NCBI RefSeq assembly: GCF_000012805.1
Contig: NC_007484.1
Coordinates: 120,001-152,000 of the forward strand
Origin: Nitrosococcus oceani ATCC 19707
GTDB taxonomy: Bacteria > Pseudomonadota > Gammaproteobacteria > Nitrosococcales > Nitrosococcaceae
DNA: 32,000 bases
Reading direction: 5' to 3'
The notes below the pieces were generated by a model that searched no databases, was not told the origin of the DNA, and was given only the letters and a program-made list of their open reading frames with translations. Positions 6,111 through 29,083 of the stretch are shown piece by piece; positions within the stretch are counted from its first letter, which is position 1, and each line of letters opens with the position of its first letter. Both the position numbers and the translations under genes were made by a program.

Positions 6111-6113
6111 GGG

Positions 6114-10822: not shown

Positions 10823-10895
10823 ACAAATAGGCGATCCATCTCTATAAGCTCTGGCGCTCGAGATAGTTAATATATTTTAATTTCAATTGCTTGCG

Positions 10896-11627: not shown

Positions 11628-11647
11628 CTAGATATATTTTCTTGTAG

Positions 11648-12205
11648 TTATCCTGTAAGGCACCTTTGGAGCGTTTTCTCCAGGTACTCGAGATTGGGAA
11701 TCAATACTGGAATCTGGTTAATTTCTGCGTAACAGTATAGCAAGGGACTGTTGGGAGCCTTGGGGGAAGCTGAGAGGTTATTGGTATGGGCCAGAATCAG
11801 CTGGGGAATGTTTTGAATAATAAGAGCATAAAATTTCCGATTGGAATCCTTTCTTACAGTATTGAGTATGACGATGTGGGCATGGTTTGAAAGTGCTGGA
11901 ACAGGTTTTTTTTGAAGCGCTTCAAAACTTACCAGCAGGAGGAGCTGCTCCCGCCAGCGTACTGTACCGCATAGCCAGCGAGGGGCATTCGGCAGGGATT
12001 TAGGCTTGAGATAAGGGATAATTTCGGCAATTGCGGTTCTGGGTAAAAGTAAGACTTGCTCCTGCAAAGGTATCAGAATGCTGGGTACTTGGTTGCTGGA
12101 TTGTGCATGGCTACCGGCTTTATCATCATCGTCATGGGGATGTGTCTCTGCCCTGATATTTGAAATAGATAGCTGGTTTGTAGTCATTTCTAATGGAAAA
12201 GTCAT
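11648..12205 (-). CDS. chpC: CheW-like coupling protein (ChpC-like), last gene of the Pil-Chp operon
   Basis: 185 aa with a CheW-fold pattern (LLPRTAIAEI...PNAPRWLCGTVRWREQLLLLVSFE...HIVILN...YALIIQNIPQL). It has a short His/Asp-rich N-terminal extension (HPHDDDDK). Its position after chpB matches the P. aeruginosa order. Confidence 0.75.
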   Translation of the reverse strand: MTFPLEMTTNQLSISNIRAETHPHDDDDKAGSHAQSSNQVPSILIPLQEQVLLLPRTAIAEIIPYLKPKSLPNAPRWLCGTVRWREQLLLLVSFEALQKKPVPALSNHAHIVILNTVRKDSNRKFYALIIQNIPQLILAHTNNLSASPKAPNSPLLYCYAEINQIPVLIPNLEYLEKTLQRCLTG

Positions 12206-12214
12206 AAATTAAAT

Positions 12215-13222: not shown

Positions 13223-16200
13223 TGGCCTCAGTCGCGTTTAAAAAAAGTTGAATATGTTGTAATAATTCGTCCTCTTGATAGGGTTTAATTAAATAGGCGT
13301 TAATGCCTATTTGGTCAGCTTTATCCCGGTGTTTTTTCCCGCTCCGGGAGGTAATCATGATGATTGGAATACCCCGCAATCGTTTATCTTTTCGTATAAA
13401 AGCAGCGAGCTCAAAGCCATCCATCCGCGGCATTTCAATATCTAGCAGGAAAATATCGGGGGTGTATTCCTGAAGCAGTTCTACTGCATTTACCCCATCC
13501 CGGGCTGTCAGTACTTCCATTCCATGGCGTTCCAGAATTTTCTCGGTAGTTTTGCGAATAGTAATAGAATCATCGATGACCATGACCGCTGGTTTTTGCG
13601 CTATCTTGGTATTTGCCTGCCGCTTTATCGCTATAGAGGTTTCTGTTTTTTGTGTGGCCTTACGGATCAGTGCTGGCAGATCCAGGATAAGCACTACTCT
13701 GCCATCCCCTAGAATAGTTGCGCCGGCTATCTCTTTGATAGCGCCGAGCTGGGGTCCCACTGATTTAATGACGATTTCACGGCTGCCTATTAAAGCATCT
13801 ACTAGTATGGCGGCCTGAAATTCGCCCGAACGCACTAATAATACAGGGTAATGGGTGTTAGAGGTGGATGTTTCTGGGTAATCTTGTCCCAAGGCGGCGC
13901 CAAGATCAATAAAGCGATAATTAACGTTTTCATGACAAAATAGGCATTGTTCGCTAGCAAGGAGGGAATCAACGGTTTCCTTATCAAGACGGATTACACT
14001 TTGTACGCTAATGATAGGCAAAGCGAAAAGTTCATTCTTCGTTTCGACTAACAGGGCCTGGACAATAGTAAAAGTCAGTGGAAGGCGGATGGTAAAGGTT
14101 GTTCCCTTACCTTTTTGAGAGGCGATAGCTAAGGTTCCGTTGAGGGCTTGTATTTCGCTATTGACAACATCCATACCTATCCCACGCCCCGCAACTTGGG
14201 AAACGTTATTAGCAGTACTGAAACCCGATTCCAGGATGAGCTGGATTAGATCAGCGTCGGGCGGCATCGCCTCTTTCTGCACCAATCCTCGAGTAAGTGC
14301 TTTAGCGCGTATTTTCTCCAAATCAATGCCTTGTCCGTCATCGCTTACGTGGATGACAATCTCCGAGCCTTCACGGGTTAGTGAGAGGGAAATACTACCC
14401 ATTTCTTTCTTGCCAGCTGCAATACGGAGAGGGGCTTTTTCAATACCATGAGCGATACTATTTCGTAACATATGCTCAAGGGGAGCCATAATACGATTTA
14501 ATACTGTACGGTCTAATTCATGACCGCTATCCGTTATTTTTATCTGGACTTTTTTATCGAGTTCCTGGGCTGTTTGGCGAACGATTCTATGAAGGCGCGG
14601 TGTTACTCCCGTAAACGGTAGCATCCGTGTATTCATTAAGCCCTGTTGCAGGTCAGCCCCAGTACGTGATTGCTGGAGTAAGAGGATATCCGCTTCCCGT
14701 GCTGTCCCATCTAGCGTTTCTTTAATATTAGTGAGATCGCTGATACTTTCCACGAGTCCCCGTGACAATTGGTGTAATTGAGAGTAGCGATCCATTTCCA
14801 AGGGATCAAAGCCTTCCAGATGTTGGTTATTTGCTTCTTCATGGCGATAAATGATTTGGGTCTCTGTCTCGATCTCTAACCTGCGAATTTGACTCCGCAG
14901 GCGGGCAACAGTTCGTTCCATTTCGCCAAGGTTTAAACGTATTGTCCCAATCTGTTGTTCGAGGCGAGTGCTAAAGATATTAACTTCAGCAGCATTGTTC
15001 ACTAGATGATCCAGCAAATCGGCCCGTACCCGTATTTGTTCTACTGGAGGGGTTCCGGTTTCTGCAAGAGGGCGCGCGGTTTTATGCAGCTTCTGTTCGG
15101 GGGGAAGAGCTAGTGTTGCTGCTGGCAGTTCTTGATCGTGAATTAACCGCGCTTGTTCCGATTTCTGAGAGGATGGTAGATCCTCAGAATTGTAACGACT
15201 TATTTCAATCAATAAATCTGATATGGAAGGGAGTGGGACAGCGTTTTGAGCAAACTCGCATAATGTACATAATCTATCAAGACAATGCTGCAAAAGCCCA
15301 AATAGCCCTGATTCCGTATTTTGTTTTCCCTCTATTATCGTGCTTGCTATTGTTTCCATATGATGGGCTAGGTCAGCCAACAGGGTAATCCCTGCTAGCC
15401 GCGCGCCACCTTTTAAGGTATGCAGATGCCGTTGAAATTCCTCAGCCGGAGCTTGTTCTGAGGAGAAGTTTTTCTGCCAGGCTGAAAGGCTTATCTGGCT
15501 AGCCTGCAGCAGCTCATCGGCTTCCTCTAGGAAAGCAGCAACCAGTTCGTTATTGGGATCGATGGAGGGAGCCTTTGAAACAGGATCAGGGGTATCATCC
15601 TGAGAGAGCTCATCTGGCATCGGCAGCATTTTTTCCGTATATGGTAAAGATTCAGCCATTCCATGAATACGGGAGGATAAATCATTAGCAGCGAGTAAAG
15701 CAGCTCCATGGCGAAGGGAGTCGCACATTTCTGCAAGTCGATCATGTCCTTCTTGTAAGAGATTGAGGAATTCACTGTTATCTGTAAAGCCCTTATCAAT
15801 AGCAGTGATAATAAGAGATTCCAGATCATGGCTAAGATCGCCCAGAGCGGTAAGGTTAGCCAGGCGTGCGCCCCCTTTTAGGGTATGAAGCTCTCGTTGT
15901 AGTTGTTGTACCGGTGTGCTTTCTTGAGGAGATGCGCGTAGGTCGGTTAGCGTAGTCTCTATAGCTTGCAGGACGTCATCCGCTTCATCGAGGAAAACGG
16001 CTAGTAATTCTGGATCCGAAAGATGTCCAGAAACAGAAGTATGCTGGCCTGAAATGAATTTTCCTTGTTCTGCTAGCTGTGCTTCCTGGGTAAGTTCTGG
16101 ATCATGCTTAGAATTTTTCTCCCCGGTGGAGGACTCGCTGTTTTTAGCAGGGGGGGAGTAGGAATCCTCTACTTCAACAGCCTGGAGGGTGGAGTCAACC

Positions 16201-18485
16201 TCACTGGAAGCAAGATTGGGCGTATTGTCAGCTACGGCCTGCGCCCTTTGTAATAATGCCAAAATACTCTCGGCTGGTCTCCCTCCCCCCTGCGTGAACA
16301 AGGTAAGAAGCTGTGGTAATGCTTGCTGTGCTCCTTCAATTATTTCAAATACCGCAGGCTTGATTTCAATTGTTCCCTCCATAATACGGTTAAGCATATT
16401 TTCAATAGCCCAGGCTAGCTCGCCGATATCGATTGCACCGACGAGGCGCCCACTGCCTTTGAGGGTATGAAAGGAGCGGCGTATCGTTTTAAGCGCTTCC
16501 TGTTGGCTGCTATCCTGCCGCCATTGAGAAAAATGCTTAGCGATGGAAAGCATCTCTTCTTGGGCTTCTTCAATAAAATAGGTGGCAATTTCTGGGTCGA
16601 CATCTTTTGGATAAACTGGTGCGCCAGGAATTTCCCAAGTGGTTCTAGAGAATGGAATTAGGTCGCTTTTTACTTCTGAGACAGAGTTTTCTTCAGTAAC
16701 TCCTAAAGATAATTCTTCGGGGGCAGATTCAGCACCCATAGATTCGACATTAGCTTGGTAATTATTAATCGCATTATCTAAAGGTGTTGGAACACGGGTC
16801 AGGCATTCCGCTGCAGTGTCTAAAAGTGAGCTGCTCGCTAACGCGCCTTCCGCTAGCATCTCTAGATAGAGTTCTATAGCGCAAATGGCTTCTGCTAGTT
16901 CCTCCAGGCCGGCGGGGTAGGACTTATATATTTTTCCGATAAGAGCTTTATTAATGAAAATATTACACTCTGCGATTAAATCGGCAATACGGGTTAATTC
17001 CAGCACCGACAAAATCTCTGAGATTTGTCGTAATTTATTCGGAACAGAATTCAGTGCGTTTGAGTCGTTTAGATTCAGACTATAGCTAGTTAGTGCCTCA
17101 CTTACAGTCATAAGTTCAGCGAGGCATTCTTTTGCTGCCGTATGCAGCGCCGCTTTGACATTATCATCAGAAGTAGGAGCTGAAGATGTCGTTTGGCGAA
17201 TATCGGAATGGCTACCAGTGGCAGGAGATGATTTTTTTGGGTTTTTTGATAACGCTATTTCTTTTTTAAGTGATGCCTCAATTTGGAGCAGATTATCAGC
17301 CAAATCTAGCTGTTGATTGCTGTCAGATCCAGTTTCTTTTTGACTAATAGCATGTAGCTTCCTGATTGCTTCATGCAGAATGAAAATAGAGGTATCAAAG
17401 CCAAGTACTTCTAAGGTATCAGCCATCTTGTGAAACAGGCGATCTAGATTTTCAATTCCTTCCTTTGATATTCCATTAGCGCGTTCAGAAATCTCTAGGA
17501 GATCTTTAGCCTGAGTAAGATCTTCTTGAAGAGCATCAAATACCGTATCAACGACTTCGGCTCCTAGATTGCTTAATAAGGACTGGTCTGAAGAAGAAAA
17601 ATAATTTTCTAATTGATAAGTTTCTTTTATGGCAGAAACATAGCTTCCAGAAGAGGTAGCATTAGCAACTTGGAATAATAGTGATTTAAGCAGGCTGTCA
17701 GTTATATCGTCTACTAATGCGGACTCGCCTGATTGAATCAATATTTTAACTTTCTTATTCAATCCTCCTAATAAAAGTTTTATTTCTTGGGTTGATTGAA
17801 TTCCATCTTCTTGCAGCGCTTCAATAACTCCTTGAGATAACCACCATAGGCGAATAGCAGCAATATCACGGCAGCTTTGCCGTAATTCAGACATGACCTT
17901 AGCTAGGTGTAAAAGACTATCACTGGATGAATTTCGGAACCAATTGAGGAGAGCCGACTCGTATTGAAGACGTAATTTGGAAGAAAATAAGGGAGAAACG
18001 TTACTATCCATCTCTAAGGGAGATGCCAAGGTGTTTGGGAGCGGAGTGTTTAATTCCGGCTCAAAGAAATCTATTTTTTTTAGTGGGCACTTGTTATAGG
18101 TTTGACGTATCTCATTTACCATAGGCAAGACACTAACAGGATGATCCTTCTTTCCTGAATGTAGGCGATTTAGATAATCCTGAAGAGAAAGCGTACCTTG
18201 CATTAATATTTCTAGAGCTTGAGAATTAGATTCTATTTCTTTCTCAAGAATACCAAGAGCTAGCGCTTTGGTCTCAGACGCAAGCAGATTTGCCCCTGAT
18301 AATTCCACCATTTCAAGAACTCCTTCTACCTGATGTAAATGGTTTAGGTAGAAGCGTAATTGGGTGATATCATCTGTGTTTTCGGCAAAGGCTTCTAAAG
18401 CTAGACTTGCCTCACGCAATGATTCTTCAAGCTCATTCTTAACCCAGCTGAGCGCGTTTTCACTGAACTCATAATTTGTGCTCAT
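13209..18485 (-). CDS. chpA: ChpA/PilL-type hybrid histidine kinase (multi-Hpt - dimerisation - HATPase - CheW - receiver)
   Basis: 1758 aa.
- Canonical Hpt motifs: FHTLKGSGRL (His673, nt 16467-16469), LHTLKGGARL (His867, nt 15885-15887) and LHTLKGGARL (His1022, nt 15420-15422).
- Degenerate Hpt-like helices lie near aa 45-60, 345-365 and 484-500.
- The CheA dimerisation region spans about aa 1150-1290.
- HATPase boxes are LEHMLRNSIAHG, DDGQGID and GRGIGMD.
- The CheW-like domain spans about aa 1475-1607.
- The C-terminal receiver reads VMVIDDS...FLLDIEMPRMDG (Asp1682, nt 13440-13442) ...YLIKP. Confidence 0.95.
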   Translation of the reverse strand: MSTNYEFSENALSWVKNELEESLREASLALEAFAENTDDITQLRFYLNHLHQVEGVLEMVELSGANLLASETKALALGILEKEIESNSQALEILMQGTLSLQDYLNRLHSGKKDHPVSVLPMVNEIRQTYNKCPLKKIDFFEPELNTPLPNTLASPLEMDSNVSPLFSSKLRLQYESALLNWFRNSSSDSLLHLAKVMSELRQSCRDIAAIRLWWLSQGVIEALQEDGIQSTQEIKLLLGGLNKKVKILIQSGESALVDDITDSLLKSLLFQVANATSSGSYVSAIKETYQLENYFSSSDQSLLSNLGAEVVDTVFDALQEDLTQAKDLLEISERANGISKEGIENLDRLFHKMADTLEVLGFDTSIFILHEAIRKLHAISQKETGSDSNQQLDLADNLLQIEASLKKEIALSKNPKKSSPATGSHSDIRQTTSSAPTSDDNVKAALHTAAKECLAELMTVSEALTSYSLNLNDSNALNSVPNKLRQISEILSVLELTRIADLIAECNIFINKALIGKIYKSYPAGLEELAEAICAIELYLEMLAEGALASSSLLDTAAECLTRVPTPLDNAINNYQANVESMGAESAPEELSLGVTEENSVSEVKSDLIPFSRTTWEIPGAPVYPKDVDPEIATYFIEEAQEEMLSIAKHFSQWRQDSSQQEALKTIRRSFHTLKGSGRLVGAIDIGELAWAIENMLNRIMEGTIEIKPAVFEIIEGAQQALPQLLTLFTQGGGRPAESILALLQRAQAVADNTPNLASSEVDSTLQAVEVEDSYSPPAKNSESSTGEKNSKHDPELTQEAQLAEQGKFISGQHTSVSGHLSDPELLAVFLDEADDVLQAIETTLTDLRASPQESTPVQQLQRELHTLKGGARLANLTALGDLSHDLESLIITAIDKGFTDNSEFLNLLQEGHDRLAEMCDSLRHGAALLAANDLSSRIHGMAESLPYTEKMLPMPDELSQDDTPDPVSKAPSIDPNNELVAAFLEEADELLQASQISLSAWQKNFSSEQAPAEEFQRHLHTLKGGARLAGITLLADLAHHMETIASTIIEGKQNTESGLFGLLQHCLDRLCTLCEFAQNAVPLPSISDLLIEISRYNSEDLPSSQKSEQARLIHDQELPAATLALPPEQKLHKTARPLAETGTPPVEQIRVRADLLDHLVNNAAEVNIFSTRLEQQIGTIRLNLGEMERTVARLRSQIRRLEIETETQIIYRHEEANNQHLEGFDPLEMDRYSQLHQLSRGLVESISDLTNIKETLDGTAREADILLLQQSRTGADLQQGLMNTRMLPFTGVTPRLHRIVRQTAQELDKKVQIKITDSGHELDRTVLNRIMAPLEHMLRNSIAHGIEKAPLRIAAGKKEMGSISLSLTREGSEIVIHVSDDGQGIDLEKIRAKALTRGLVQKEAMPPDADLIQLILESGFSTANNVSQVAGRGIGMDVVNSEIQALNGTLAIASQKGKGTTFTIRLPLTFTIVQALLVETKNELFALPIISVQSVIRLDKETVDSLLASEQCLFCHENVNYRFIDLGAALGQDYPETSTSNTHYPVLLVRSGEFQAAILVDALIGSREIVIKSVGPQLGAIKEIAGATILGDGRVVLILDLPALIRKATQKTETSIAIKRQANTKIAQKPAVMVIDDSITIRKTTEKILERHGMEVLTARDGVNAVELLQEYTPDIFLLDIEMPRMDGFELAAFIRKDKRLRGIPIIMITSRSGKKHRDKADQIGINAYLIKPYQEDELLQHIQLFLNATEANVTL

Positions 18486-21616: not shown

Positions 21617-21982
21617 TTAGGGGTTTATTAGCATATTAATTTTATTAAATAGTTCTTCCTTGCTGACTGGTTTAGATAAATAACCCTTAGCCCCTTGGCG
21701 TAGACCCCAAACTCGATCCGTTTCCTGATTTTTTGCTGATATAATTATTACGGGTATTCCAGCAGTTTCTGGATCACGCTTTAGCTTCCTTGTAGCTTGG
21801 AAACCGTTAACCTGTGGCATTACAACATCCATTAATATCAAATCAGGCTTTAAGGCTTTGGCTTTGGTCAGGCCTTCTAAGCCATTATTAGCAAAGGAAA
21901 CGGTAAACCCTTTTTTTTCTAGCATTATCCTAAATGCATGGCTTTCTGTTGAGGAATCATCAACTACTAAGATATGTGTCAT
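21617..21982 (-). CDS. pilH: single-domain response regulator PilH
   Basis: MTHILVVDDSSTE...PDLILMDVVMPQVNGFQATRKLK...IPVIIISAKNQETDRVWGLRQGAKGYLSKP closely resembles P. aeruginosa PilH. I chose the start at the ATG at 21982 (AGGAG 6 nt upstream). The longer track ORF, to 22093, would overlap pilG. Confidence 0.9.
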   Translation of the reverse strand: MTHILVVDDSSTESHAFRIMLEKKGFTVSFANNGLEGLTKAKALKPDLILMDVVMPQVNGFQATRKLKRDPETAGIPVIIISAKNQETDRVWGLRQGAKGYLSKPVSKEELFNKINMLINP

Positions 21983-22061
21983 GGGGTGCTCCTGCATTTG
22001 GAAGGTTTTGGTTAATGCTAATTCTATTTTTAGCCAGATATTAGTAGCTAATGTAAAAAAA

Positions 22062-22460
22062 TCATGAGTGATTGCAGTGGTTTGAAATAGCACCTAAGAG
22101 TTCTTCACGAGTAAAAGGCTTTGTTAGATATTGGTCGCAACCGGCGATGCGGCCACGTGCCCGGTCAAATAAACCATCCTTGCTAGAGAGCATAATAATT
22201 GGAGTTTTTTTTAATGCGGTGTTGTTCTTTATCAAGGCACAGGTTTGATACCCATCTAGCCTTGGCATCATAATATCTATAAATATGATGTCTGGATGAT
22301 GCTGGTTTATTTTGGGAAGAGCCTCGAATCCATCTTCTGCTGTTACTACTTTACAGCCAGATTTTTTAAGTAAAGTTTCTGCCGTTCTTCGAATAGTCTT
22401 ACTATCGTCAATGACCATAACTTTAAGACCATTGAATTCGAGATTTCCCGCATTACTCAC
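22062..22460 (-). CDS. pilG: single-domain response regulator PilG
   Basis: ...GLKVMVIDDSKTIRRTAETLLKK.GC.V.TA.DGF.AL.KI....P.IIF.DIMMPRLDGYQTCALIKNN...K.TP.IMLSSKDGLFD.A.GRI.G.DQYLTKPF..EELLGAI is near-identical in pattern to Pseudomonas PilG. The start is a GTG at 22460, with GGGAGA upstream. Confidence 0.95.
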   Translation of the reverse strand: MSNAGNLEFNGLKVMVIDDSKTIRRTAETLLKKSGCKVVTAEDGFEALPKINQHHPDIIFIDIMMPRLDGYQTCALIKNNTALKKTPIIMLSSKDGLFDRARGRIAGCDQYLTKPFTREELLGAISNHCNHS

Positions 22461-22905
22461 AGCAGATATCTCCCATCTTTAATCATGTTCCATTTAAACA
22501 ATAAACTACTTGTTGAAAAACAATCACTTATTAAAACCATAAAACTGCTTGTTCTGTGAGGGATAATGCTAGACGTATTGCTTGGTCTTTGTGCCTATGT
22601 AACCCTTATCCTTGTACAAAAATTGCTAGAACATTAATCGACAGTTAGCCCTTATCCTTTAATGTTGAGTCCCGATGATCATGAATAATTTGGGTAAGGG
22701 CATGTGACCAGGTTCGGCCTTGAAAATTAAGATTTATAATTTCTTTCCGCTATTTAGATCAGAGGCATATTTGTCTTTAAGTAAGATCCGCATGATGATA
22801 AGTATAAGTAGGAGTATGATTATTAAAGATAAAAAAATTGCTAGAATTTTTATCTAGCAGATAGCATGGCAACCTCAAGGCTTACAAGCGCATGTACAGC
22901 AAATA

Positions 22906-22920
22906 TTGTTGAATTTGTTG
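22906..22920. promoter_or_regulatory. imperfect palindrome CAGCAA-ATA-TTGTTG (copy 1 of the GCAAATATTG motif)
   Basis: It shares the 10-mer GCAAATATTG with the perfect palindrome at 23222-23236. Both lie in the pilG / 23391-gene divergent spacer. Confidence 0.2.
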
Positions 22921-23131
22921 TATAGAGAAGAATCCCATTGCTATGGATCCCTGCTGGATTTCTTTATTGCCTTGGATAAGAAGGATCACCCATTACGGCA
23001 ACGTATGCTGCTCCCGGCATAGCTTATATGCTTACCACGGAACCAAGGAAAGCGTTATGGGAAAAACTAGGTCGAGAGATGAGGGGGGTCAGTATTATAC
23101 CGAGGGCGTCTGAAGCAGTATTGAGCGAAGC

Positions 23132-23147
23132 TGTGACAGGGAGCACA
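23132..23147. promoter_or_regulatory. CRP/Vfr-like site TGTGA-N6-GCACA
   Basis: TGTGACAGGGAGCACA has one mismatch to the TGTGA-N6-TCACA half-site arrangement. It lies 244 nt upstream of the ATG at 23391. Confidence 0.2.
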
Positions 23148-23221
23148 GATTTAGTATGCCGAAAAAGTATTCTCAGTGTAACAATTAGCTAAGTTTATTG
23201 GAACAGTTATGTCTATGGGAT

Positions 23222-23236
23222 CCTGCAAATATTGCA
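23222..23236. promoter_or_regulatory. perfect palindrome CTGCAA-ATA-TTGCAG, a candidate operator
   Basis: A 6-bp inverted repeat with a 3-nt spacer, about 155 nt upstream of the ATG at 23391. It immediately follows a CTATGGGATCC motif that also occurs, as CTATGGATCC, at 22941. Confidence 0.25.
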
Positions 23237-23390
23237 GTGGCAGAAGTATATTAAAAACGTAGCTGCGATCAGTGGGCATTGAGGAAAATAGGTCAGTGTC
23301 TTGGAAAGCAAGGATTGATACTACTATCACCGTGGAAAATATTAATAGAACAGTTAGAACGAGGTATTTAGAAAAGATTTTGGTATACCT

Positions 23391-24590
23391 ATGGTAAATT
23401 CAAACTTGGTTCCCTTACGTGTAGCTACTTTTGGTGTAGGTCAACATGTAAGAAAGCTATTAGAGATGGCGTTTTCGGGGCCTGGCAAGGGAAACTATCT
23501 TTTAGTAGAGGAAACCTCTGCTGAAGCAGGTATTCTTGATTTGGACGGCCCTAGCTGGAAGATGGTATGGAATGATTATAGATCTCGTTTCCCTAAACGC
23601 CCAGCCCTTATCATGTCCATGCGCCCCGCTGTTTTTCAGGACTCTTTGGTTATCCCCAAGCCAGTGAGGTTAGAGACTTTATTAGCGGCTTTGGAAAAAC
23701 TTAGAGCAAATTGTAGATGCGGAGGGAAAGCGCCGAGGTCATCTCCGCAGCAACCGTTAAAATCGCGCCATGGGGCTGGAGCATCCAAGTCTTTTCAGAT
23801 TCCTTCCTCTTCTATAAAAGCTGCTAACAGCACAGCGTATCAACCTTTTATTTTTGGCGCCGCAGAAGCGATGGAGAGAGGGACGATTCAGGAATACTGC
23901 GGTAATGCGCCTGATCGCGATGTTACCGATCCTATTCAATTGGAAAAAATTTATTATGATCCTCACCGTTATTTTCAAGGCTATCTCCATAATGCGCTTA
24001 TCAAAGCCCAAGCTATAGGCGGCGCTCGCATTACCAGTGGTTGGGGTGAAGTCATTGTTTTATCTGAAGTCAACCAGGCCATGCTTAGACTGAGTGATAG
24101 ACAGCTCCGGCCGCTATGTGTGATGCCATTGGCTAAAGCGAATGTTGATATCAGCGCGCTTGCTCCACAAGAGGTGGAGGCATTGTACTCCCAGGTTGTT
24201 TATTCAGACTCATGGCAGTCTCTGCATCCCTTGCTATGGAAAGTCGCTTTGTGGACTTCGCGGGGGCGGATTCCCTTGGGTGTGCCTCTTGATCGCCCCG
24301 TATGCCTCAAACACTGGCCTAACCTTACCCGGTTATTGCTCACACCCCACGCGATGCGTATTGCTGCTCTCTGGGCGGTGCAGCCTTGCTCTTTAATGGG
24401 AACCGTCGCTACCTTGCAGATACCCCAACGTTATGTTTTTGCTTTCTTTAGCGCCCTCCATAGCGTGGGGTTGGTAGAACTAGAGCAGATTACAGTAAAG
24501 AAAGTGCCTTCATCAATCCCAGCCTCTCACCATCAAGGTATCCTGGGCAGAGTTTTGAATCGATTACGTAAGGCTAGCCCTCCTCTATGA
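23391..24590 (+). CDS. receiver-like (pseudo-REC) domain protein with a Ser/Pro-rich linker and a large C-terminal domain ending in a DUF742/wHTH-like segment
   Basis: 399 aa, and 23391 is the only possible start because an in-frame TAG lies at 23355-23357. Residues 8-105 follow the beta-alpha pattern of a receiver (LRVATFGVG / GILDLDG / ALIMSM / VIPKPVRLETLLAALEKL). The linker is CGGKAPRSSPQQPLKSRHGAGASKSFQIPSSS. The C-terminal ...LTPHAMRIAALWAVQPCSLMGTVATLQIPQRYVFAFFSALHSVGLVELE resembles the HTH of CvnC/DUF742 proteins. The codon usage and GC content are host-like. Confidence 0.7.
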   Translation: MVNSNLVPLRVATFGVGQHVRKLLEMAFSGPGKGNYLLVEETSAEAGILDLDGPSWKMVWNDYRSRFPKRPALIMSMRPAVFQDSLVIPKPVRLETLLAALEKLRANCRCGGKAPRSSPQQPLKSRHGAGASKSFQIPSSSIKAANSTAYQPFIFGAAEAMERGTIQEYCGNAPDRDVTDPIQLEKIYYDPHRYFQGYLHNALIKAQAIGGARITSGWGEVIVLSEVNQAMLRLSDRQLRPLCVMPLAKANVDISALAPQEVEALYSQVVYSDSWQSLHPLLWKVALWTSRGRIPLGVPLDRPVCLKHWPNLTRLLLTPHAMRIAALWAVQPCSLMGTVATLQIPQRYVFAFFSALHSVGLVELEQITVKKVPSSIPASHHQGILGRVLNRLRKASPPL

Positions 24591-24629
24591 TAGTTTCAGG
24601 ATTGAAATCTATAAATTTCATGAAGTTTA

Positions 24630-25175
24630 ATGGCAAATCATAAGCTTATATTTACTGGTCCCGTAGGGGTTGGTAAAACAACAGCTATTAGCATGCTTAG
24701 CGATATTCCCACCGTCAGCACAGACGAGACGGCTAGCGATATGACACGGCGAAAAAAGCCTCGGACTACTGTAGCCATGGACTACGGGCTGATGAATGTG
24801 TCGGAAACGGAACGGGTTCATCTCTATGGTACACCTGGCCAAGAGCGATTTGACTTTATGTGGGATATTTTGACTGAAGGGGGAATTGGGTTGGTCTTGC
24901 TGTTAGATAATAGCCGTACTAATCCTCTTCAGGATATGCATTTTTTTCTTGGCGCTTTTCGAGGATTCATTAATCGTACGGGTGTGGCAATCGGAGTATC
25001 GCGAATGGATTTGCACTCCCAGCCAAAAATCAGTGATTATTATCAACAGCTGCAAGGGTTTGCTAAGAAACCGCCTATCCTTGAAGTAGATGCTCGTAAC
25101 CGCAGGGATGTTTCCTTGTTAATACAGACATTGCTTTATTCCTTAGATCCAGGATTGGCCAATTCAGATGGGTAG
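24630..25175 (+). CDS. small Ras-like GTPase of the MglA / CvnD ('ATP/GTP-binding protein') type
   Basis: 181 aa. It has the P-loop GPVGVGKTT (nt 24657-24683), a switch-I Thr in PRTTVAMDYG, and switch II LYGTPGQERFDFMWDIL. The G4-like motif is GVSRMD and the G5-like motif is EVDARN. Confidence 0.85.
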   Translation: MANHKLIFTGPVGVGKTTAISMLSDIPTVSTDETASDMTRRKKPRTTVAMDYGLMNVSETERVHLYGTPGQERFDFMWDILTEGGIGLVLLLDNSRTNPLQDMHFFLGAFRGFINRTGVAIGVSRMDLHSQPKISDYYQQLQGFAKKPPILEVDARNRRDVSLLIQTLLYSLDPGLANSDG

Positions 25176-25797
25176 TTACCAAATTATTCCCAATCAATAT
25201 GTACTACCAACGCCAGGGGGTGCCTATTACGCTATTTCGAGCCCCGTGGTGGAGCCTGCCCGGGAGCTATTGTTTCGAGTGTTTCAAGAAAGCAATACGC
25301 CTCCGCTAACCGCCGAGAAAGTGCAAGCCTGGGGAGAAGATGGAGCCGTGACTTTAGAGTTGATTTTTCGGATGCAATCCTTGGCCTGGTTGCAAGGTAT
25401 ACCGCTTTCCCGTGAAGCTCCGGCGGGGTCGTTAGAAGGTGTCTTGCCGAATTTACTGGCTAAATTGTCTGGCAGTGGGAAGGCGCTGCTTTCCGATGAT
25501 CAGGGATTTTATCTTGCGACTCATGGTTATGGGCACGAGACTGCTGAAGAATTATCAGCCTTGAGTGCTGATCTAAGTGCTTTGCATGAGCGGCACAAGG
25601 GCTTATTACAAGAGCATTTAAAGCTACGCTCAAGGGGTTGGGGGTTGGTGGGCGCTGCCGGGACTAGTCAGGTAGGATTTTGGCCCCTTTATATGGGAAA
25701 GCAGCACTTTATGTTAGTTATTGGGGATTGCCCCCGTTTTAATCAACCGGCATTTACTGAGCTTATTTGGCTATTAGCGCGGCGTTATTCTCACTAA
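25168..25797 (+). CDS. Roadblock/LC7-like (MglB/CvnB-like) protein with an about 90-aa N-terminal extension
   Basis: 209 aa, and its start overlaps the GTPase stop by 8 nt (ATGGGTAG). Residues ~95-205 (LPNLLAKLSGSGKALLSDDQGFYLATHGYGHETAEELSALSADLSAL...GWGLVGAAGTSQVGFWPLYMGKQHFMLVIGD...) fit the Roadblock alpha-beta-alpha pattern. This assignment rests on pattern recognition only. Confidence 0.65.
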   Translation: MGSYQIIPNQYVLPTPGGAYYAISSPVVEPARELLFRVFQESNTPPLTAEKVQAWGEDGAVTLELIFRMQSLAWLQGIPLSREAPAGSLEGVLPNLLAKLSGSGKALLSDDQGFYLATHGYGHETAEELSALSADLSALHERHKGLLQEHLKLRSRGWGLVGAAGTSQVGFWPLYMGKQHFMLVIGDCPRFNQPAFTELIWLLARRYSH

Positions 25798-26173
25798 CGT
25801 GGATAATATTATTGAGGAAGTTATAATCCGTAGTGCGTTGGCCTAGAGCATTAGGGTATCGAGGTTTGTTTATACCATTATCCTAGAAGAAAGCGTGTCG
25901 CCGTATCCACCGCAATTTCACTATTTTTATTTTCTCCCGCCTCTTCACTCTCAATTTGTTGCACCATAACATCAATGCCTGCTACAGCCTTGACAGGTTA
26001 TTGCTGTATAACGGAGTCTGTGGACATTGAATAGCCCTCTTTCTGAAGGAAGGCCAATGGTTATGTTATTAAACTCACCCGCGCTAAACAGAAAGCGCCG
26101 GAAGGGATAGTCATGCTGCACAACTCCCTATCTTTTCCGGCAGGTAATTACTGGGATTTTCCGCGAACCGCCG

Positions 26174-29083
26174 ATGAACTGGCAAGCCAACATTCATAAG
26201 CTACCGGCCCTTCTCCAGGGGCGGCTTAAAAATGATTTGGCTCGTTTTCAGGAAGCGTTAGAGCAGAAAAATCTGGATACGGTATTCAAAGCAAAAACAC
26301 TTAAAACGCTTTGTCTCGTCTGGGGGGCGAGTGAGTTTGTGGCAACCAATTGTATTCGTTGGCCTTCTTTGTTGTTGGATTTGCAAGGAAGCGGTAATCT
26401 CTTCCGTGCTTATGAGCCAAACCATTATGTCAAAAGCCTAGCTCAACAGCTTACTAATATTTCTACTGAAACGGAGCTGATGGTTGTCTTACGGCGTTTT
26501 CGCCAGCGGGAGATGGTGCGCATTGTTTGGCGTGATTTGGCCGGTTGGGCCAGCCTTGATGAGGTTTTTAGGGAACTCTCCCAACTGGCAGAGGCGTGTC
26601 TTAACAGCGCCTTGGCTTGTTTACACTATTGGCAAAGCCAGGCGTTAGGCACTCCTTATGGATCTATCTCTGGTAAACCTCAGTCCATGGTAGTGTTGGG
26701 TATGGGTAAATTGGGGGCGCGGGAACTTAATCTTTCTTCGGATATCGACCTTATTTTTGCCTATCCTGAGTCGGGGGAAACTCGCGGCGCGCAGCGGACC
26801 TTGAACAATGAGGAATATTTCATTCGTTTAGCTCGGCGCTTAATCCGAGTCCTTGATGAGCGCACGGAAGAGGGATTTGTGTTTCGGGTTGACATGCGTT
26901 TGCGCCCTGATGGGGACTCTGGTCCCCTGGTGGCAAGTTTCAATGCCATGGAGAATTATTATCAGAATCAAGGCCGTGACTGGGAGCGGTATGCCATGAT
27001 CAAGGCTCGGGTGGTTGCCGGTGACTGTCAGGCTGGAACGCGTTTAATGGCGATGCTACGGCCTTTTTCTTATCGTCGTTATCTAGATTTTGGCGCCATT
27101 GAGTCTTTACGTAGCATGAAGGCGATGATTGCCCAAGAACTGCGGCGGCAGGGAATCAAAGCTAATATAAAACTAGGTCCTGGAGGGATTCGCGAGGTTG
27201 AATTTATTGGCCAATCTTTTCAGTTGATCCGTGGGGGACGTGAATCGGCTCTTCAGGAGCGAGGGATCCTGCGGGTGCTGACGCTGTTAGCGGAGAGAGA
27301 CCACCTGCCCTATTATGCTAAAGAAGAACTATGCGCAGCCTATGTGTTTTTGCGCCGGGTTGAGCATCGCCTCCAAGCTTACCGGGATGAGCAAACCCAC
27401 GATTTGCCAACTTCAACCGAGGGACGTGTTCGTTTGGCCTTTGCTATGGGTTACAGGGATTGGGAGGCGTTTGCTAGCGCGCTCGAAGAGCATCGGCGCC
27501 GGGTTCAAGAGCATTTTGAGCAGTTATTTGCTGCGCCTCATATGGATATCACTGATCAGATGGCCCAGGAGAAGAGACTTGCCGAAGTTTGGTTAGGAGG
27601 GGAGTTACGGGAGGCGAGTCTAGCGGTTTTAAGTGCGGCTGGATATCGTGCCCCAGAAGAGGCGGTGCAGACGCTGATGTATCTACGCCAGTCTTACACG
27701 GTGCGCGCCCTTAGCGCTCAGGCCCGAATTCGCCTGGATCGGTTGATGCCCCTGTTGCTAGGGGCAGTTGGCCGCACCGAGTATCCAGAGCAGTGTCTGC
27801 AGCGGGTAATAATTTTGCTGGAAACCGTGGCTCAGCGTACCGCTTATTTAGCTCTATTGGCAGAATATCCTATGGCTTTATCCCAGCTCGTGAAGCTATG
27901 TGCGGCCAGCCCCCTGATTGCCCGCCAGTTGACCCGCTACCCTTTGCTATTGGATGAACTGCTGGATCCCCGTTCTCTGTACCAGGTATTGGGCTATGAT
28001 TCCTTGGCCGAAGATCTGAAGTGGTCGCTAGAATCTATCCCAGGGGATGATTTGGAGCAACAAATGGAATTGCTGCGCCACTTTTGCCAGCGCCAGACAT
28101 TGCGCGTTGCGGCGGCTGATGTGACGGGGGTGCTGCCCCTGATGAAAGTAGGTGATCACTTAACTTATTTGGCGGAGGTAATTCTAAAAAAGGCCCTGGA
28201 GCTTAGTTGGCGGCACCTGGTTCACCGCCATGGCCGACTTCAAAGCAGCACCGGAGAGCAGCCGGAAGAGTCCGGTTTTGCCGTCATTGGCTATGGAAAA
28301 TTGGGGGGGTATGAGCTGGGCTATGGTTCCGATCTGGACCTGGTTTTCCTTCATAACGCTAAACCGGGCGATCCTCCCAGCGAGGGGAAAAAACCCCTCG
28401 ACCCTGTGGTATTTTATAGTCGTTTGGGACAGCGTCTTATCCATATCCTACAGACTTCGACTCCTTCTGGAAAACTGTATGAAGTTGATACTCGCCTGCG
28501 TCCAAGCGGCGTTTCCGGACTATTGGTCAGCGGCCTGGATGCCTATCGAGGTTATCAGTGCATGCAAGCTTGGACTTGGGAGCATCAAGCCCTGGTTCGG
28601 GCCCGCTTCGTGGCGGGCGACGCAAGGCTCGGCGCCGCCTTTACCGCTATGCGGCAGGAGATTCTGGGGCGGCAACGAGATCCAATAAAGTTGCGGGATG
28701 AGGTCCGTCATATGAGGGCTAAGATGCGGAACCAATTGGATCGCAGCCAGGGGGGCTGGTTCGATCTTAAGCAGGGCAGGGGTGGTATTGCTGATATAGA
28801 ATTTATAGTTCAATATGGGGTACTTGCCTGGGCCCATGCTCATCCTCAATTGCTAGAGTACCCGGACAATATTCGGATTCTGGAAGGTTTTGCCCAGGCG
28901 GGGCTGTTGGCATCAGAAGAAAGTCAGCTACTGGCGGATGCCTATCGGGCCTATCGGGCAGCAGCCAATCGGCTCAATTTACAGACCCACGAGGCTCGGG
29001 TAGAAGAGGGGCAGTTTCGCCAGGAGCGCATTGCTGTCCAGCAGCTGTGGTCTGCTTTACTAGAAGATGAATCCGCCAAATAA
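26174..29083 (+). CDS. glnE: bifunctional glutamine synthetase adenylyltransferase / adenylyl-removing enzyme
   Basis: 969 aa with two nucleotidyltransferase domains (GMGKLGARELNLSSDIDLIF...FRVDMRLRPDG and GYGKLGGYELGYGSDLDLVFL...YEVDTRLRPSG), each followed by a GlnE-C helical domain. Confidence 0.95.
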   Translation: MNWQANIHKLPALLQGRLKNDLARFQEALEQKNLDTVFKAKTLKTLCLVWGASEFVATNCIRWPSLLLDLQGSGNLFRAYEPNHYVKSLAQQLTNISTETELMVVLRRFRQREMVRIVWRDLAGWASLDEVFRELSQLAEACLNSALACLHYWQSQALGTPYGSISGKPQSMVVLGMGKLGARELNLSSDIDLIFAYPESGETRGAQRTLNNEEYFIRLARRLIRVLDERTEEGFVFRVDMRLRPDGDSGPLVASFNAMENYYQNQGRDWERYAMIKARVVAGDCQAGTRLMAMLRPFSYRRYLDFGAIESLRSMKAMIAQELRRQGIKANIKLGPGGIREVEFIGQSFQLIRGGRESALQERGILRVLTLLAERDHLPYYAKEELCAAYVFLRRVEHRLQAYRDEQTHDLPTSTEGRVRLAFAMGYRDWEAFASALEEHRRRVQEHFEQLFAAPHMDITDQMAQEKRLAEVWLGGELREASLAVLSAAGYRAPEEAVQTLMYLRQSYTVRALSAQARIRLDRLMPLLLGAVGRTEYPEQCLQRVIILLETVAQRTAYLALLAEYPMALSQLVKLCAASPLIARQLTRYPLLLDELLDPRSLYQVLGYDSLAEDLKWSLESIPGDDLEQQMELLRHFCQRQTLRVAAADVTGVLPLMKVGDHLTYLAEVILKKALELSWRHLVHRHGRLQSSTGEQPEESGFAVIGYGKLGGYELGYGSDLDLVFLHNAKPGDPPSEGKKPLDPVVFYSRLGQRLIHILQTSTPSGKLYEVDTRLRPSGVSGLLVSGLDAYRGYQCMQAWTWEHQALVRARFVAGDARLGAAFTAMRQEILGRQRDPIKLRDEVRHMRAKMRNQLDRSQGGWFDLKQGRGGIADIEFIVQYGVLAWAHAHPQLLEYPDNIRILEGFAQAGLLASEESQLLADAYRAYRAAANRLNLQTHEARVEEGQFRQERIAVQQLWSALLEDESAK

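What the first reader, a model, noticed from the sequence alone, without database searches (positions are those of the whole stretch)
23391..25797. Kinase-less, conservon-like / MglAB-RomR-like small-GTPase module encoded divergently from the Pil-Chp operon
Three co-directional, tightly packed genes (39-nt gap, then an 8-nt overlap) sit across a 930-nt spacer from pilG.
- Gene 2 is a P-loop small GTPase. In its switch II (LYGTPGQERFDFMWDIL) the DxxG Asp is replaced, as in the MglA / actinobacterial CvnD branch.
- Gene 3 ends in a Roadblock/LC7-like domain, the fold of the MglB GAP and of CvnB.
- Gene 1 combines a receiver-like domain, a Ser/Pro-rich linker and a C-terminal region whose end resembles the DUF742/CvnC wHTH.

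This is the parts list of a Streptomyces conservon (CvnB/C/D) or of the Myxococcus MglA-MglB-RomR polarity switch. It differs in four ways: the gene order is different, there is no CvnA-type sensor kinase, it is in a gammaproteobacterial context, and it lies next to the type IV pilus chemosensory system.

The multi-Hpt kinase ChpA could plausibly provide the missing phosphoryl input. As far as I know (no search was possible), no G-protein module has been characterised as a partner of Pil-Chp. A GTPase polarity or output switch for twitching motility would be new biology.
Basis: partly seen in the sequence, partly recalled or inferred. Interest (0 to 1): 0.8.

Follow-up and report, generated by a model that had tools for sequence, protein, structure and literature searches.

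The report
Known small-GTPase module beside pilus genes
The three genes are a real small-GTPase signalling module, but it is an already catalogued type (an "MglA Group 3" system of Nitrosococcus oceani) that has lost parts here, and its position next to the pilus chemosensory genes is found only in this genus.

Summary
Three tightly packed plus-strand genes lie 930 nt from pilG: a receiver-like/wHTH protein (g1), a Ras-superfamily GTPase with a GTPGQ switch II (g2), and an N-terminally extended Roadblock/LC7 protein (g3).

It is not new. The window is Nitrosococcus oceani ATCC 19707. This locus is listed as "DUF>MglA>MglB" among the MglA Group 3 systems of beta/gamma-proteobacteria in Wuichet & Sogaard-Andersen 2014. 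That paper already predicted a receiver-like N-terminus and a wHTH-like C-terminus for the DUF.

The proposed Pil-Chp partnership is not supported:
- None of 80 related loci from other genera has pilG/pilJ/chpA nearby. The adjacency occurs only in the Nitrosococcus clade.
- The g1 receiver lacks the acidic metal-binding pair, so phosphotransfer from ChpA is doubtful.
- DUF742/CvnC homology could not be shown.

New details:
- The usual operon is larger: TPR-like gene, g1, g2, g3, a second Roadblock, often a stand-alone Aer-type PAS, protoglobin or CZB sensor, and a cytoplasmic PhnD-like protein.
- In N. oceani the TPR-like gene survives only as a pseudogene filling the "spacer", and the downstream genes are absent.
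- The trio is nevertheless under purifying selection (dN/dS 0.08-0.31).

Function has not been tested experimentally.

The parts
22825..23362 (+). Pseudogene of the operon's usual first gene ('c3', a ~250-aa protein with a TPR-like C-terminus). It fills most of the pilG-g1 'spacer'.
   Evidence: - Residues 44-243 of the intact N. halophilus orthologue (L082:7466-8203) align here in three different frames, with in-frame stops (tblastn, summed E = 1e-30).
- c3 proteins from 40 other loci also hit 22744-23064.
- The region is also dead in N. watsonii, with 8 stops.
- The oceani/watsonii spacer alignment shows indels whose lengths are not multiples of 3.
23391..24590 (+). g1 (Noc_0132), the 'DUF' of MglA Group 3 systems. 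It has three regions:
- Atypical receiver-like domain: aa 8-110 = 23412-23720.
- Disordered Ser/Pro-rich linker: aa 115-148 = 23733-23834.
- Conserved C-terminal region: aa 167-399 = 23889-24587, ending in a wHTH-like motif (aa ~319-365 = 24345-24485).
   Evidence: - 100% identical to N. oceani Noc_0132; 312 homologues, all annotated 'hypothetical'.
- AF2 model pLDDT 86.6.
- Foldseek matches to REC domains.
- hhalign against REC: E = 8e-7.
- Pfam Response_reg is hit by 10 of 76 members and HTH families by a few.
- Weak wHTH match in the PDB.
24630..25175 (+). g2, an MglA-family Group 3 small GTPase. Its motifs are:
- G1: GPVGVGKT.
- G2: TT, with no arginine finger.
- G3: GTPGQ.
- G4: SRMD.
- G5: DAR.
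   Evidence: - Pfam ATP_bind_1 2.8e-12 and Ras 1.2e-4.
- Full-length alignment to KRas, and E = 1.7e-3 to MglA 3t12.
- Motif conservation across 61 orthologues.
- 33% identity to Streptomyces conservon GTPases and 55% to the Neisseria gonorrhoeae orthologue.
25168..25797 (+). g3, a long MglB-type protein: an ~80-aa N-terminal helical domain plus a C-terminal Roadblock/LC7 domain (aa ~85-209 = 25420-25794). It overlaps g2 by 8 nt.
   Evidence: - AF2 model pLDDT 90.
- Top Foldseek PDB hits are MglB (6hjm, 6izw, 1j3w, 3t12), Roadblock 3kye and Ragulator.
- dN/dS = 0.10 against N. halophilus.

Best explanation
**What it is.** The locus is the Nitrosococcus oceani copy of an MglA Group 3 system, a cytoplasmic, kinase-less small-GTPase signalling module of beta/gamma-proteobacteria. 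Here it is in a reduced state.

**What is shown.**
- g2 is a Ras-superfamily GTPase with the GTPGQ / TT / DAR signature of MglA Groups 2-5.
- g3 has an MglB-type Roadblock/LC7 fold.
- g1 has an atypical receiver fold, a disordered linker and a conserved C-terminal region ending in a wHTH-like motif.
- g1 and g2 are adjacent in 75 of 78 related loci with enough flank, and g3 follows in 61 of 78.
- The trio is under purifying selection in Nitrosococcus.

**What is inferred.**
- g2 is the GTP/GDP switch.
- g3 acts on it as an MglB-like GAP or platform, probably paired with a second short Roadblock protein. That protein is encoded in the operon elsewhere; here it is probably the orphan Noc_1488.
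- g1 is the switch's partner. Either it is the output, with its wHTH binding DNA (as Wuichet & Sogaard-Andersen proposed), or it is a CvnC-like exchange factor whose activity is set by its receiver-like domain.
- In most genomes the input probably comes from co-encoded stand-alone redox/oxygen sensor proteins (Aer-type FAD-PAS, protoglobin, CZB) and a cytoplasmic PhnD-like binding protein. N. oceani has none of these at the locus, and its TPR-like first gene is a pseudogene.

**Position next to pilG.** This is synteny inherited within the Nitrosococcus clade, not evidence of a functional partnership with Pil-Chp.
For: **Identity**
- g1 is 100% identical to Noc_0132.
- Table S2 of PMC4316618 lists 'Nitrosococcus oceani ATCC 19707 Noc_0132 DUF>MglA>MglB> 181' under MglA Group 3.
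- The paper's description of Group 3 matches: DUF with a receiver-like N-terminus, variable linker and wHTH-like C-terminus; deviant G4; DAR G5; GTPGQ G3; Thr instead of Arg in G2.
- I reproduced each feature independently.

**Module conservation**
- g2 follows g1 in 75/78 loci and g3 in 61/78.
- c3 lies upstream in 61/76.
- A short Roadblock (c4; Pfam 1.3e-16) is present in 59/76.
- A stand-alone sensor is present in 49/73.
- The PhnD-like protein is present in 27/66.
- The same c3-g1-g2-g3-c4 order is found in Neisseria gonorrhoeae.

**Sensor identities**
- Aer PAS: 8dik, E = 8e-39.
- Protoglobin 7e-26, CZB 2e-13, Phosphonate-bd 4.6e-40.

**Erosion in the clade**
- c3 is a pseudogene here.
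- g3 is a pseudogene in N. watsonii.
- Both c3 and g3 are absent in L090.

**Selection**
- dN/dS is 0.22-0.31 for g1, 0.08-0.14 for g2 and 0.10 for g3.
- The neighbouring pil genes give 0.05-0.17.

**Orphan MglB.** Noc_1488 is listed in Table S2.

**No Pil-Chp linkage.** 0 of 80 loci outside the clade show it.
Against: - No Group 3 system has been characterised biochemically. GAP, GEF and DNA-binding roles are all inferred from fold and from analogy with MglA/MglB and the actinobacterial conservon.
- The fold of g1 residues 150-320 was not assigned. The full-length Foldseek search was dominated by the receiver domain, and no further structure jobs were available.
- N. oceani lacks the sensors, the second Roadblock and the TPR-like gene at this locus, so the local input and output may differ from the canonical system.
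- The pilG adjacency is retained in all 4 Nitrosococcus-clade genomes where the upstream flank is visible, although the downstream flank varies. This leaves some room for local co-regulation.
- A Snodgrassella study loosely connects a Group 3 locus with pilus-dependent behaviour.
Confidence: 0.72

Rival explanations
1. **Pil-Chp partner.** In Nitrosococcus the module works with the type IV pilus chemosensory system. ChpA, or PilG/PilH cross-talk, controls g1, and the GTPase sets pilus polarity or output, as MglA does downstream of Frz in Myxococcus.
For: - The module is arranged divergently from pilG and shares an intergenic region with it. This is conserved in N. oceani, N. watsonii, N. halophilus and a more distant relative (L090), although dS exceeds 1 and the downstream flank differs.
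- g1 keeps the receiver Asp (D50/D52), S76 and K90-P91.
- In Myxococcus, MglA-GTP acts on pili through the TPR protein SgmX (abstract of PMC7519303).
- In Snodgrassella, a mutation in an orphan MglB of a Group 3 system changed colony-edge flares. The authors interpreted this as a change in pilus-dependent motility.
Against: - 0 of 80 related loci in other genera have pilG, pilJ or chpA orthologues within 10 kb. The only hits are generic receiver or MCP domains at 24-35% identity.
- Recurrent flanking genes elsewhere are unrelated: an oligopeptide ABC transporter, an OmpR-type regulator and DabA/B.
- The g1 receiver lacks the acidic Mg-binding pair, and in N. oceani even the single remaining acidic position is Gly.
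- The TPR-like gene, the best analogue of a pilus effector, is a pseudogene here.
- The Snodgrassella link to pili is inferred from Myxococcus, not demonstrated.
Confidence: 0.1
2. **Decaying relic.** The locus is a remnant of a larger operon on its way to loss, and no longer has a function in N. oceani.
For: - c3 is a pseudogene.
- The short Roadblock, sensor and PhnD-like genes are absent at the locus.
- g3 is frameshifted and truncated in the sister species N. watsonii.
- g3 and c3 are both missing in L090.
Against: - g1, g2 and g3 are intact in N. oceani and N. halophilus. Their dN/dS values (0.08-0.31) are comparable to the neighbouring pil genes.
- g1 and g2 are intact in all five clade genomes examined.
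- The c3 pseudogene is shared by oceani and watsonii, so g1 and g2 have stayed under constraint since that loss.
Confidence: 0.1
3. **Conservon relative with a fused GEF.** The g1 C-terminal region is a true homologue of CvnC/MfpC (DUF742), i.e. a guanine-nucleotide exchange factor fused to a receiver-like domain. The module would then be a proteobacterial conservon in which the receiver replaces the CvnA kinase. This is compatible with the best explanation as one version of g1's role.
For: - g2 is 33% identical to GTPases of Streptomyces conservons, which have the order kinase, Roadblock, DUF742, GTPase.
- g1's C-terminus and DUF742 share the same order of elements: a T/S-x-GR motif, an HTH 'P-x-S-[LV]-x-E/T-[IT]-A-x-x-L-x-[IL]-P', and a terminal amphipathic helix 'LL/LF-x-x-[IV]-L-x-x-L'.
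- The best local hhalign P value is 0.036 over 57 columns.
- MfpC is reported to be a GEF (abstract of PMC11343762).
Against: - None of 76 g1-family members hits Pfam DUF742 at E <= 1.
- hhalign probability is only 1.4%.
- The resemblance over an HTH is the kind seen between unrelated HTH proteins. A PDB profile search finds only a generic small wHTH at E = 0.44.
- The test lacked power: the same method did not detect g3 against the short Roadblock.
Confidence: 0.25

Closest known systems
MglA Group 3 systems of beta/gamma-proteobacteria (Wuichet & Sogaard-Andersen 2014, Genome Biol Evol, PMC4316618)
   Same: Everything that defines the group matches:
- Gene order DUF>MglA>MglB.
- GTPGQ G3, Thr-Thr G2, a G4 lacking Lys, and a DAR G5.
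- A DUF with a receiver-like N-terminus, variable linker and wHTH-like C-terminus.
- The taxonomic range.

This locus is itself an entry in their Table S2.
   Different: **This copy is reduced.** It has one coupled Roadblock instead of two, with an orphan (Noc_1488) elsewhere.

**Features the main-text passages I read do not mention** (the supplementary table was only searched for Nitrosococcus entries):
- A conserved TPR-like first gene, which is a pseudogene here.
- Frequent stand-alone Aer-PAS, protoglobin or CZB sensors.
- A cytoplasmic PhnD-like protein.
Actinobacterial conservon / actinobacterial G protein system (CvnA-D; Mfp of mycobacteria)
   Same: - A GTPase of the same broad branch: Pfam ATP_bind_1, GTPGQ, DAR, 33% identity.
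- A co-encoded Roadblock/LC7 protein.
- A third protein carrying an HTH-like element.
   Different: - No CvnA-type sensor kinase, either here or in any of the 80 related loci.
- No demonstrable DUF742.
- Different gene order.
- Proteobacterial, not actinobacterial.
- An extra receiver-like domain, with stand-alone sensor proteins in place of a membrane kinase.
MglA-MglB-RomR/RomX polarity module of Myxococcus xanthus (MglA Group 1)
   Same: - A Ras-like GTPase with the DxxG Asp replaced.
- A Roadblock-fold partner whose best structural matches are MglB itself.
- A partner protein with a receiver domain followed by a Pro-rich linker.
   Different: - g2 has GTPGQ, not TVPGQ, and Thr instead of the intrinsic arginine finger.
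- g2's sequence similarity to MglA is marginal (E = 1.7e-3).
- g1's C-terminal 235 residues are a conserved folded region with a wHTH, not RomR's short acidic tail (the RomR feature is from my own knowledge).
- Here the genes are co-operonic, whereas romR is unlinked to mglBA.
HGbRL of Methylacidiphilum infernorum (globin fused to a Roadblock/LC7 domain; PMC4476040)
   Same: It is a precedent for coupling an oxygen or ligand sensor (a globin) to a Roadblock/LC7 domain in a genome that also encodes an MglA-like GTPase. Related loci of the present family place a protoglobin gene next to the Roadblock genes.
   Different: In HGbRL the domains are fused, whereas in this family they are separate proteins. 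The N. oceani locus has no globin at all.

Membership tests
MglA Group 3 system (Wuichet & Sogaard-Andersen 2014) | GTPase with a GTPGQ G3 motif, and Thr (not the Group 1 arginine finger) next to the G2 Thr | tested here: met
   g2 has YGTPGQERF and PRTTVAMD. YGTPGQERF occurs in 50 of 61 orthologues and TTV is nearly universal.
MglA Group 3 system (Wuichet & Sogaard-Andersen 2014) | G4 deviates from [NT]KxD (no Lys), and G5 is DAR | tested here: met
   g2 has G4 = SRMD and G5 = VDAR. VDAR occurs in 52 of 61 orthologues.
MglA Group 3 system (Wuichet & Sogaard-Andersen 2014) | An adjacent conserved protein of unknown function with a receiver-like N-terminus, a variable linker and a wHTH-like C-terminus | tested here: met
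   - Receiver fold: Foldseek probability 1.0; hhalign E = 8e-7.
- Disordered linker at residues 115-148; its length varies between homologues.
- C-terminal helix-helix-helix-strand motif, with weak HTH matches.
MglA Group 3 system (Wuichet & Sogaard-Andersen 2014) | One or two coupled MglB (Roadblock/LC7) genes | tested here: met
   g3's model matches MglB structures. One is coupled here; a second, short Roadblock is present in 59 of 76 related loci. The orphan Noc_1488 is listed in Table S2.
MglA Group 3 system (Wuichet & Sogaard-Andersen 2014) | Beta/gamma-proteobacterial host; the locus is listed by the authors | tested here: met
   The window is N. oceani. Relatives are in Chromatiales, Methylococcales, Rhodocyclales and Neisseria.
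Actinobacterial conservon (CvnA-B-C-D) | CvnA-type sensor histidine kinase in the operon | tested here: not met
   There is no kinase gene between pilG and glnE. No kinase family is among the conserved neighbours in the 80 loci.
Actinobacterial conservon (CvnA-B-C-D) | CvnC = DUF742 (PF05331) protein | tested here: inconclusive
   None of 76 g1 homologues hits PF05331 at E <= 1. hhalign against 122 DUF742 sequences gives P = 0.036 at 1.4% probability. The method's power was poor, since the control comparison of g3 with the short Roadblock was missed.
Actinobacterial conservon (CvnA-B-C-D) | CvnD-type GTPase (Pfam ATP_bind_1) plus a CvnB Roadblock protein | tested here: met
   ATP_bind_1 at 2.8e-12. 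33% identity to GTPases inside annotated Streptomyces and Kitasatospora conservons. Roadblock fold of g3.
MglA-MglB-RomR polarity module (MglA Group 1) | MglA with TVPGQ and an intrinsic arginine finger in G2 | tested here: not met
   g2 has GTPGQ, with Thr at the finger position.
MglA-MglB-RomR polarity module (MglA Group 1) | Polar localisation, and GAP and effector activities controlling motility machines | not testable with these tools
   This needs microscopy and biochemistry.
Phosphorylatable response-regulator receiver domain | Phospho-acceptor Asp at the end of beta3, a conserved Ser/Thr, and Lys-Pro | tested here: met
   Counts are out of 76 homologues: D50 (60 Asp, 13 Asn), D52 (76), S76 (65), K90 (75), P91 (76).
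Phosphorylatable response-regulator receiver domain | Acidic pair after beta1 that binds Mg2+ | tested here: not met
   The aligned positions are G15-V16-G17 in N. oceani. The family consensus is G-M-D, with Asp at position 17 in 45 of 76. There is also a 5-residue deletion after beta3 relative to PilG.
Accessory module of the Pil-Chp system | Conserved genomic linkage with pilG...chpA across taxa | tested here: not met
   0 of 80 loci outside the clade show it. It is present only in N. oceani, N. watsonii, N. halophilus and L090.

The most novel reading that the evidence does not exclude
In the Nitrosococcus clade, the Group 3 G-protein module has been stripped to its g1-g2(-g3) core. It has been kept next to pilG while its accessory genes and its downstream flank were lost or rearranged. 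It may therefore have been rewired as a GTPase switch acting with the Pil-Chp / type IV pilus system. That would be the first such link in a gammaproteobacterium.
Probability: 0.08. Interest if true: 0.75.

Novelty: already known. Interest (0 to 1): 0.3.

Why it matters
Small Ras-like GTPases with Roadblock partners are well understood in bacteria only for Myxococcus MglA/MglB and, in part, for actinobacterial conservons. The beta/gamma-proteobacterial Group 3 systems occur in Neisseria, Xanthomonas, Stenotrophomonas, methanotrophs, sulfur oxidisers and nitrifiers, yet remain uncharacterised.

This window adds no new kind of system. The comparative work around it gives three usable leads:
- The core module has five genes, not three.
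- It is very often accompanied by single-domain redox/oxygen sensors of the types normally fused to chemoreceptors (Aer PAS, globin, CZB).
- The Nitrosococcus clade offers natural 'deletion mutants' (loss of the TPR-like gene, loss of g3) that define g1-g2 as the minimal retained unit.

For pilus biology, the evidence does not support the idea of a G-protein partner of Pil-Chp.

Tried and rejected
- **The search for related loci with the 25-sequence alignment.** It failed because no stretch was conserved enough. A 10-sequence alignment worked.
- **Rfam on the whole window.** Nothing found.
- **Promoter and terminator scan of 22300-26300.** Counts were no higher than in shuffled sequence, so no use was made of it.
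- **Literature search by locus tags.** No papers.
- **N. wardiae context look-up.** The protein was not on record.
- **Longer g1 homologues (506-572 aa).** Checked for extra domains as a clue to input. There are no Pfam domains, and P0092 simply has a longer linker.
- **Local hhalign of g1's middle and C-terminal regions.** Compared against the Roadblock, c3 and g3 N-terminal alignments; all non-significant. The method also missed the genuine Roadblock relation between g3 and c4, so these negatives carry no weight.
- **HMM of the g1 C-terminal region against all PDB sequences.** Only a 66-aa wHTH at E = 0.44.
- **Anti-phage defence reading.** Rejected: no PADLOC hit for g1, g2 or g3.
- **Conserved theme in genes flanking the operon elsewhere.** Rejected: the flanks hold ABC transporters, an OmpR regulator and Dab carbon transporters, which differ between lineages.
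- **Structure-prediction and homology-search caps.** N. oceani Noc_1488 could not be fetched for comparison with c4.

Full report
**1. What is in the sequence**

The window is from Nitrosococcus oceani ATCC 19707. The first gene of the trio is 100% identical to Noc_0132.

- g1: 23391-24590, 399 aa.
- g2: 24630-25175, 181 aa.
- g3: 25168-25797, 209 aa.
- A 39-nt gap separates g1 from g2, and g2 and g3 overlap by 8 nt.

Upstream, on the other strand, lies a complete Pil-Chp cluster:
- pilG: 22062-22460.
- pilH, pilI, pilJ.
- A CheR-type pilK.
- A 1758-aa chpA.
- A CheB-type and a CheW-type gene.

Downstream are glnE, ilvE, yebC and ruvC.

**2. The three proteins**

g2 is a Ras-superfamily GTPase.
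- Pfam ATP_bind_1 scores 2.8e-12 and Ras 1.2e-4.
- It aligns over its full length with KRas, with GTPGQE in place of DTAGQE.
- Across 61 orthologues the motifs are GPVGxGK[TS], TTV, YGTPGQERF, [VI][TS]R[MT]D and VDAR.

g3 barely registers as Roadblock by sequence (E = 0.043). Its AlphaFold2 model (pLDDT 90.1) has MglB of Myxococcus and Thermus, a Streptomyces Roadblock/LC7 protein and Ragulator subunits as best PDB matches, all at probability 1.00. The match covers the C-terminal ~120 residues. The first ~80 residues form an extra helical domain.

g1 was modelled at pLDDT 86.6.
- Its N-terminal receiver fold matches REC domains at Foldseek probability 1.00 and by hhalign at E = 8e-7.
- Residues 115-148 are disordered.
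- A conserved C-terminal region of 235 residues has no solved relative. It ends in a helix-helix-helix-strand motif that weakly matches HTH families.
- The receiver keeps D50/D52, S76 and K90-P91.
- It has G15-V16-G17 where receivers carry the acidic Mg-binding pair, and a 5-residue deletion after beta3. It is therefore an atypical, possibly non-phosphorylatable, receiver.

**3. It is already catalogued**

Wuichet & Sogaard-Andersen 2014 (PMC4316618) divided prokaryotic MglA-family GTPases into five groups.
- Group 3 is almost exclusive to beta/gamma-proteobacteria.
- It has GTPGQ, lacks the Group 1 arginine finger, has a deviant G4 and a DAR G5.
- Phyre2 predicted that the unknown protein has a receiver-like N-terminus, a variable linker and a wHTH-like C-terminus. 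From this the authors suggested a role in transcription control.

Their Table S2 contains these entries:
- 'Nitrosococcus oceani ATCC 19707 | Noc_0132 | DUF>MglA>MglB> | 181'.
- N. watsonii as 'DUF>MglA>'.
- N. halophilus as '<MglB<MglA<DUF'.
- An orphan MglB in each genome: Noc_1488, Nwat_1624 and Nhal_2891.

I found no biochemical study of a Group 3 system. The nearest is a Snodgrassella evolution experiment:
- A point mutation in an orphan MglB improved gut colonisation.
- The same mutation changed colony-edge flares.
- The authors attribute this to pilus-dependent motility, by analogy with Myxococcus.

**4. The Pil-Chp link**

I fetched 80 loci encoding g1 relatives from one-genome-per-species contigs, with 10 kb on each side. 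They cover Chromatiaceae, Thiodiazotropha, Sedimenticolaceae, Competibacteraceae, Methylococcales, Ectothiorhodospira, Halothiobacillus, Rhodocyclaceae, Dechloromonas and others.
- None has a pilG, pilJ or chpA orthologue nearby. The only hits are generic receiver or MCP-signalling domains at 24-35% identity.
- Recurrent genes outside the operon differ between lineages and are unrelated to pili.

The adjacency is present in N. watsonii, N. halophilus and a more distant Nitrosococcus-like metagenomic contig, L090. It is thus a clade-level synteny. The downstream flank differs between these genomes:
- glnE in N. oceani and N. watsonii.
- IS1 followed by polysaccharide-export genes in N. halophilus.
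- Polysaccharide-export genes in L090.
- gatB in L091.

This is mildly suggestive, but it falls far short of conserved linkage.

**5. The real operon is larger, and this copy is eroded**

Clustering all ORFs of the 80 loci, followed by tblastn, shows a conserved order:

c3 - g1 - g2 - g3 - [protoglobin] - c4 - [Aer-type PAS or CZB] - c5

| Element | Description | Frequency / evidence |
|---|---|---|
| c3 | ~250-aa protein with a TPR-like C-terminus | 61/76 loci |
| c4 | 120-aa canonical Roadblock/LC7 | Pfam 1.3e-16; 59/76 |
| Stand-alone sensor | Aer-type FAD-PAS (E = 8e-39 to PDB 8dik), protoglobin (7e-26) or CZB (2e-13) | 49/73 |
| c5 | Signal-peptide-less PhnD/PtxB-like binding protein | 4.6e-40; 27/66 |

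Neisseria gonorrhoeae has c3-g1-g2-g3-c4.

In N. oceani, c4, c5 and the sensors are absent from the locus. The 930-nt 'spacer' is a c3 pseudogene:
- Residues 44-243 of the intact N. halophilus c3 align to 22825-23362 in three reading frames, with in-frame stops.
- The pseudogene is shared with N. watsonii, where it has 8 stops.
- The spacer alignment has indels whose lengths are not multiples of three.

In N. watsonii, g3 is also frameshifted and truncated. In L090, both c3 and g3 are gone.

The remaining genes are nonetheless constrained. dN/dS is 0.22-0.31 for g1, 0.08-0.14 for g2 and 0.10 for g3, against 0.05-0.17 for pilG, pilI and pilJ. g1 and g2 are the invariant core in the clade.

**6. 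Mechanism**

Shown:
- The fold and motif assignments.
- The conserved co-operonic arrangement.
- Purifying selection.

Inferred:
- g2 is the nucleotide switch.
- g3, probably as a dimer with a short Roadblock (here the orphan Noc_1488), acts as an MglB-like GAP or platform.
- g1 is either the DNA-binding output or a CvnC-like exchange factor regulated through its receiver-like domain.
- Elsewhere, redox/oxygen sensor proteins feed the system, taking the place of the conservon's CvnA kinase.

A precedent for coupling a sensor to a Roadblock domain is the globin-Roadblock fusion HGbRL.

**7. The DUF742 question**

I collected DUF742 proteins from annotated Streptomyces and Kitasatospora conservons and 120 homologues.
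- The best local profile-profile alignment with the g1 C-terminus covers the HTH and the terminal helix (57 columns, P = 0.036, probability 1.4%).
- No g1 relative hits PF05331.
- The same method failed to connect g3 with c4, two proteins that share the Roadblock fold.

The result is therefore inconclusive rather than negative.

**8. Verdict**

- Novelty: already known as a catalogued, functionally untested system.
- Interest is modest. It rests on the extended operon with chemoreceptor-type sensor domains and on the natural gene-loss series in Nitrosococcus.

Noticed in passing
L055:9253-14409 (Methylotuvimicrobium buryatense 5G) and most of L001-L079: The g1-g2-g3 trio is usually embedded in a 6-8-gene operon:
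- A TPR-like protein upstream.
- A second, short Roadblock/LC7 gene downstream.
- One or more single-domain sensor proteins: Aer-type FAD-PAS, protoglobin or CZB.
- A cytoplasmic PhnD/PtxB-like binding protein.

The sensor types are those normally fused to chemoreceptors. The 2014 passages I read on Group 3 do not mention them.
   Followed up: partly
L081:11779-12416 (N. watsonii) and L090:11705-13254: g3 is a pseudogene in N. watsonii, with two frameshifts and a premature stop. It is absent from a more distant Nitrosococcus-like contig (L090). g1 and g2 stay intact in both. This is a natural gene-loss series within one clade.
   Followed up: yes
window 22612-22643: A 32-nt block (CTTGTACAAAAATTGCTAGAACATTAATCGAC) in the pilG upstream region is identical in N. 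watsonii, and a 63-nt stretch around it (22615-22676) is 84% identical in N. halophilus. The surrounding spacer is far less conserved. It may be a promoter or operator for pilG or for the former c3 operon.
   Followed up: no
window 23300-23390: The last ~90 nt before the g1 start are almost identical between N. oceani and N. watsonii, unlike the rest of the decayed c3 region. This would fit a promoter or leader for g1 that arose in, or was retained within, the pseudogene.
   Followed up: no
L023, L026, L031, L036, L044, L077 (tubeworm symbionts / Sedimenticolaceae), about 10000-18400: A variant locus has only g1-g2, with no g3, c3 or c4. It is directly followed by DabA/DabB-type inorganic-carbon transporter genes (DabA 1.5e-234). 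The arrangement recurs in six genomes.
   Followed up: partly
window 21617-22093 (minus strand): The mechanical ORF for pilH (158 aa, GTG start) runs into pilG. The N. watsonii and N. halophilus annotations give 121 aa, so the true pilH is probably about 21617-21982.
   Followed up: partly
L084:8001-8527 (Neisseria gonorrhoeae record NZ_CP119140.1): The gonococcal g2 orthologue (55% identity) matches in two pieces, so the GTPase gene may be frameshifted in this strain. The 2.17-Mb record is filed as a plasmid but is evidently the chromosome.
   Followed up: no
window 25168-25419 (g3 N-terminal domain) versus c3 C-terminal region of related loci: Profile-profile comparison of the g3 N-terminal ~80 residues with the C-terminal part of the c3 family gave the best score of all internal comparisons (47 columns, P = 0.0026, probability 11.6%). 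This is unexplained and may be chance.
   Followed up: no
window 4788-7442 (minus strand): Two tandem paralogous CNNM/CBS/CorC-type transporter genes (440 and 442 aa) lie here. They are unrelated to the finding.
   Followed up: no
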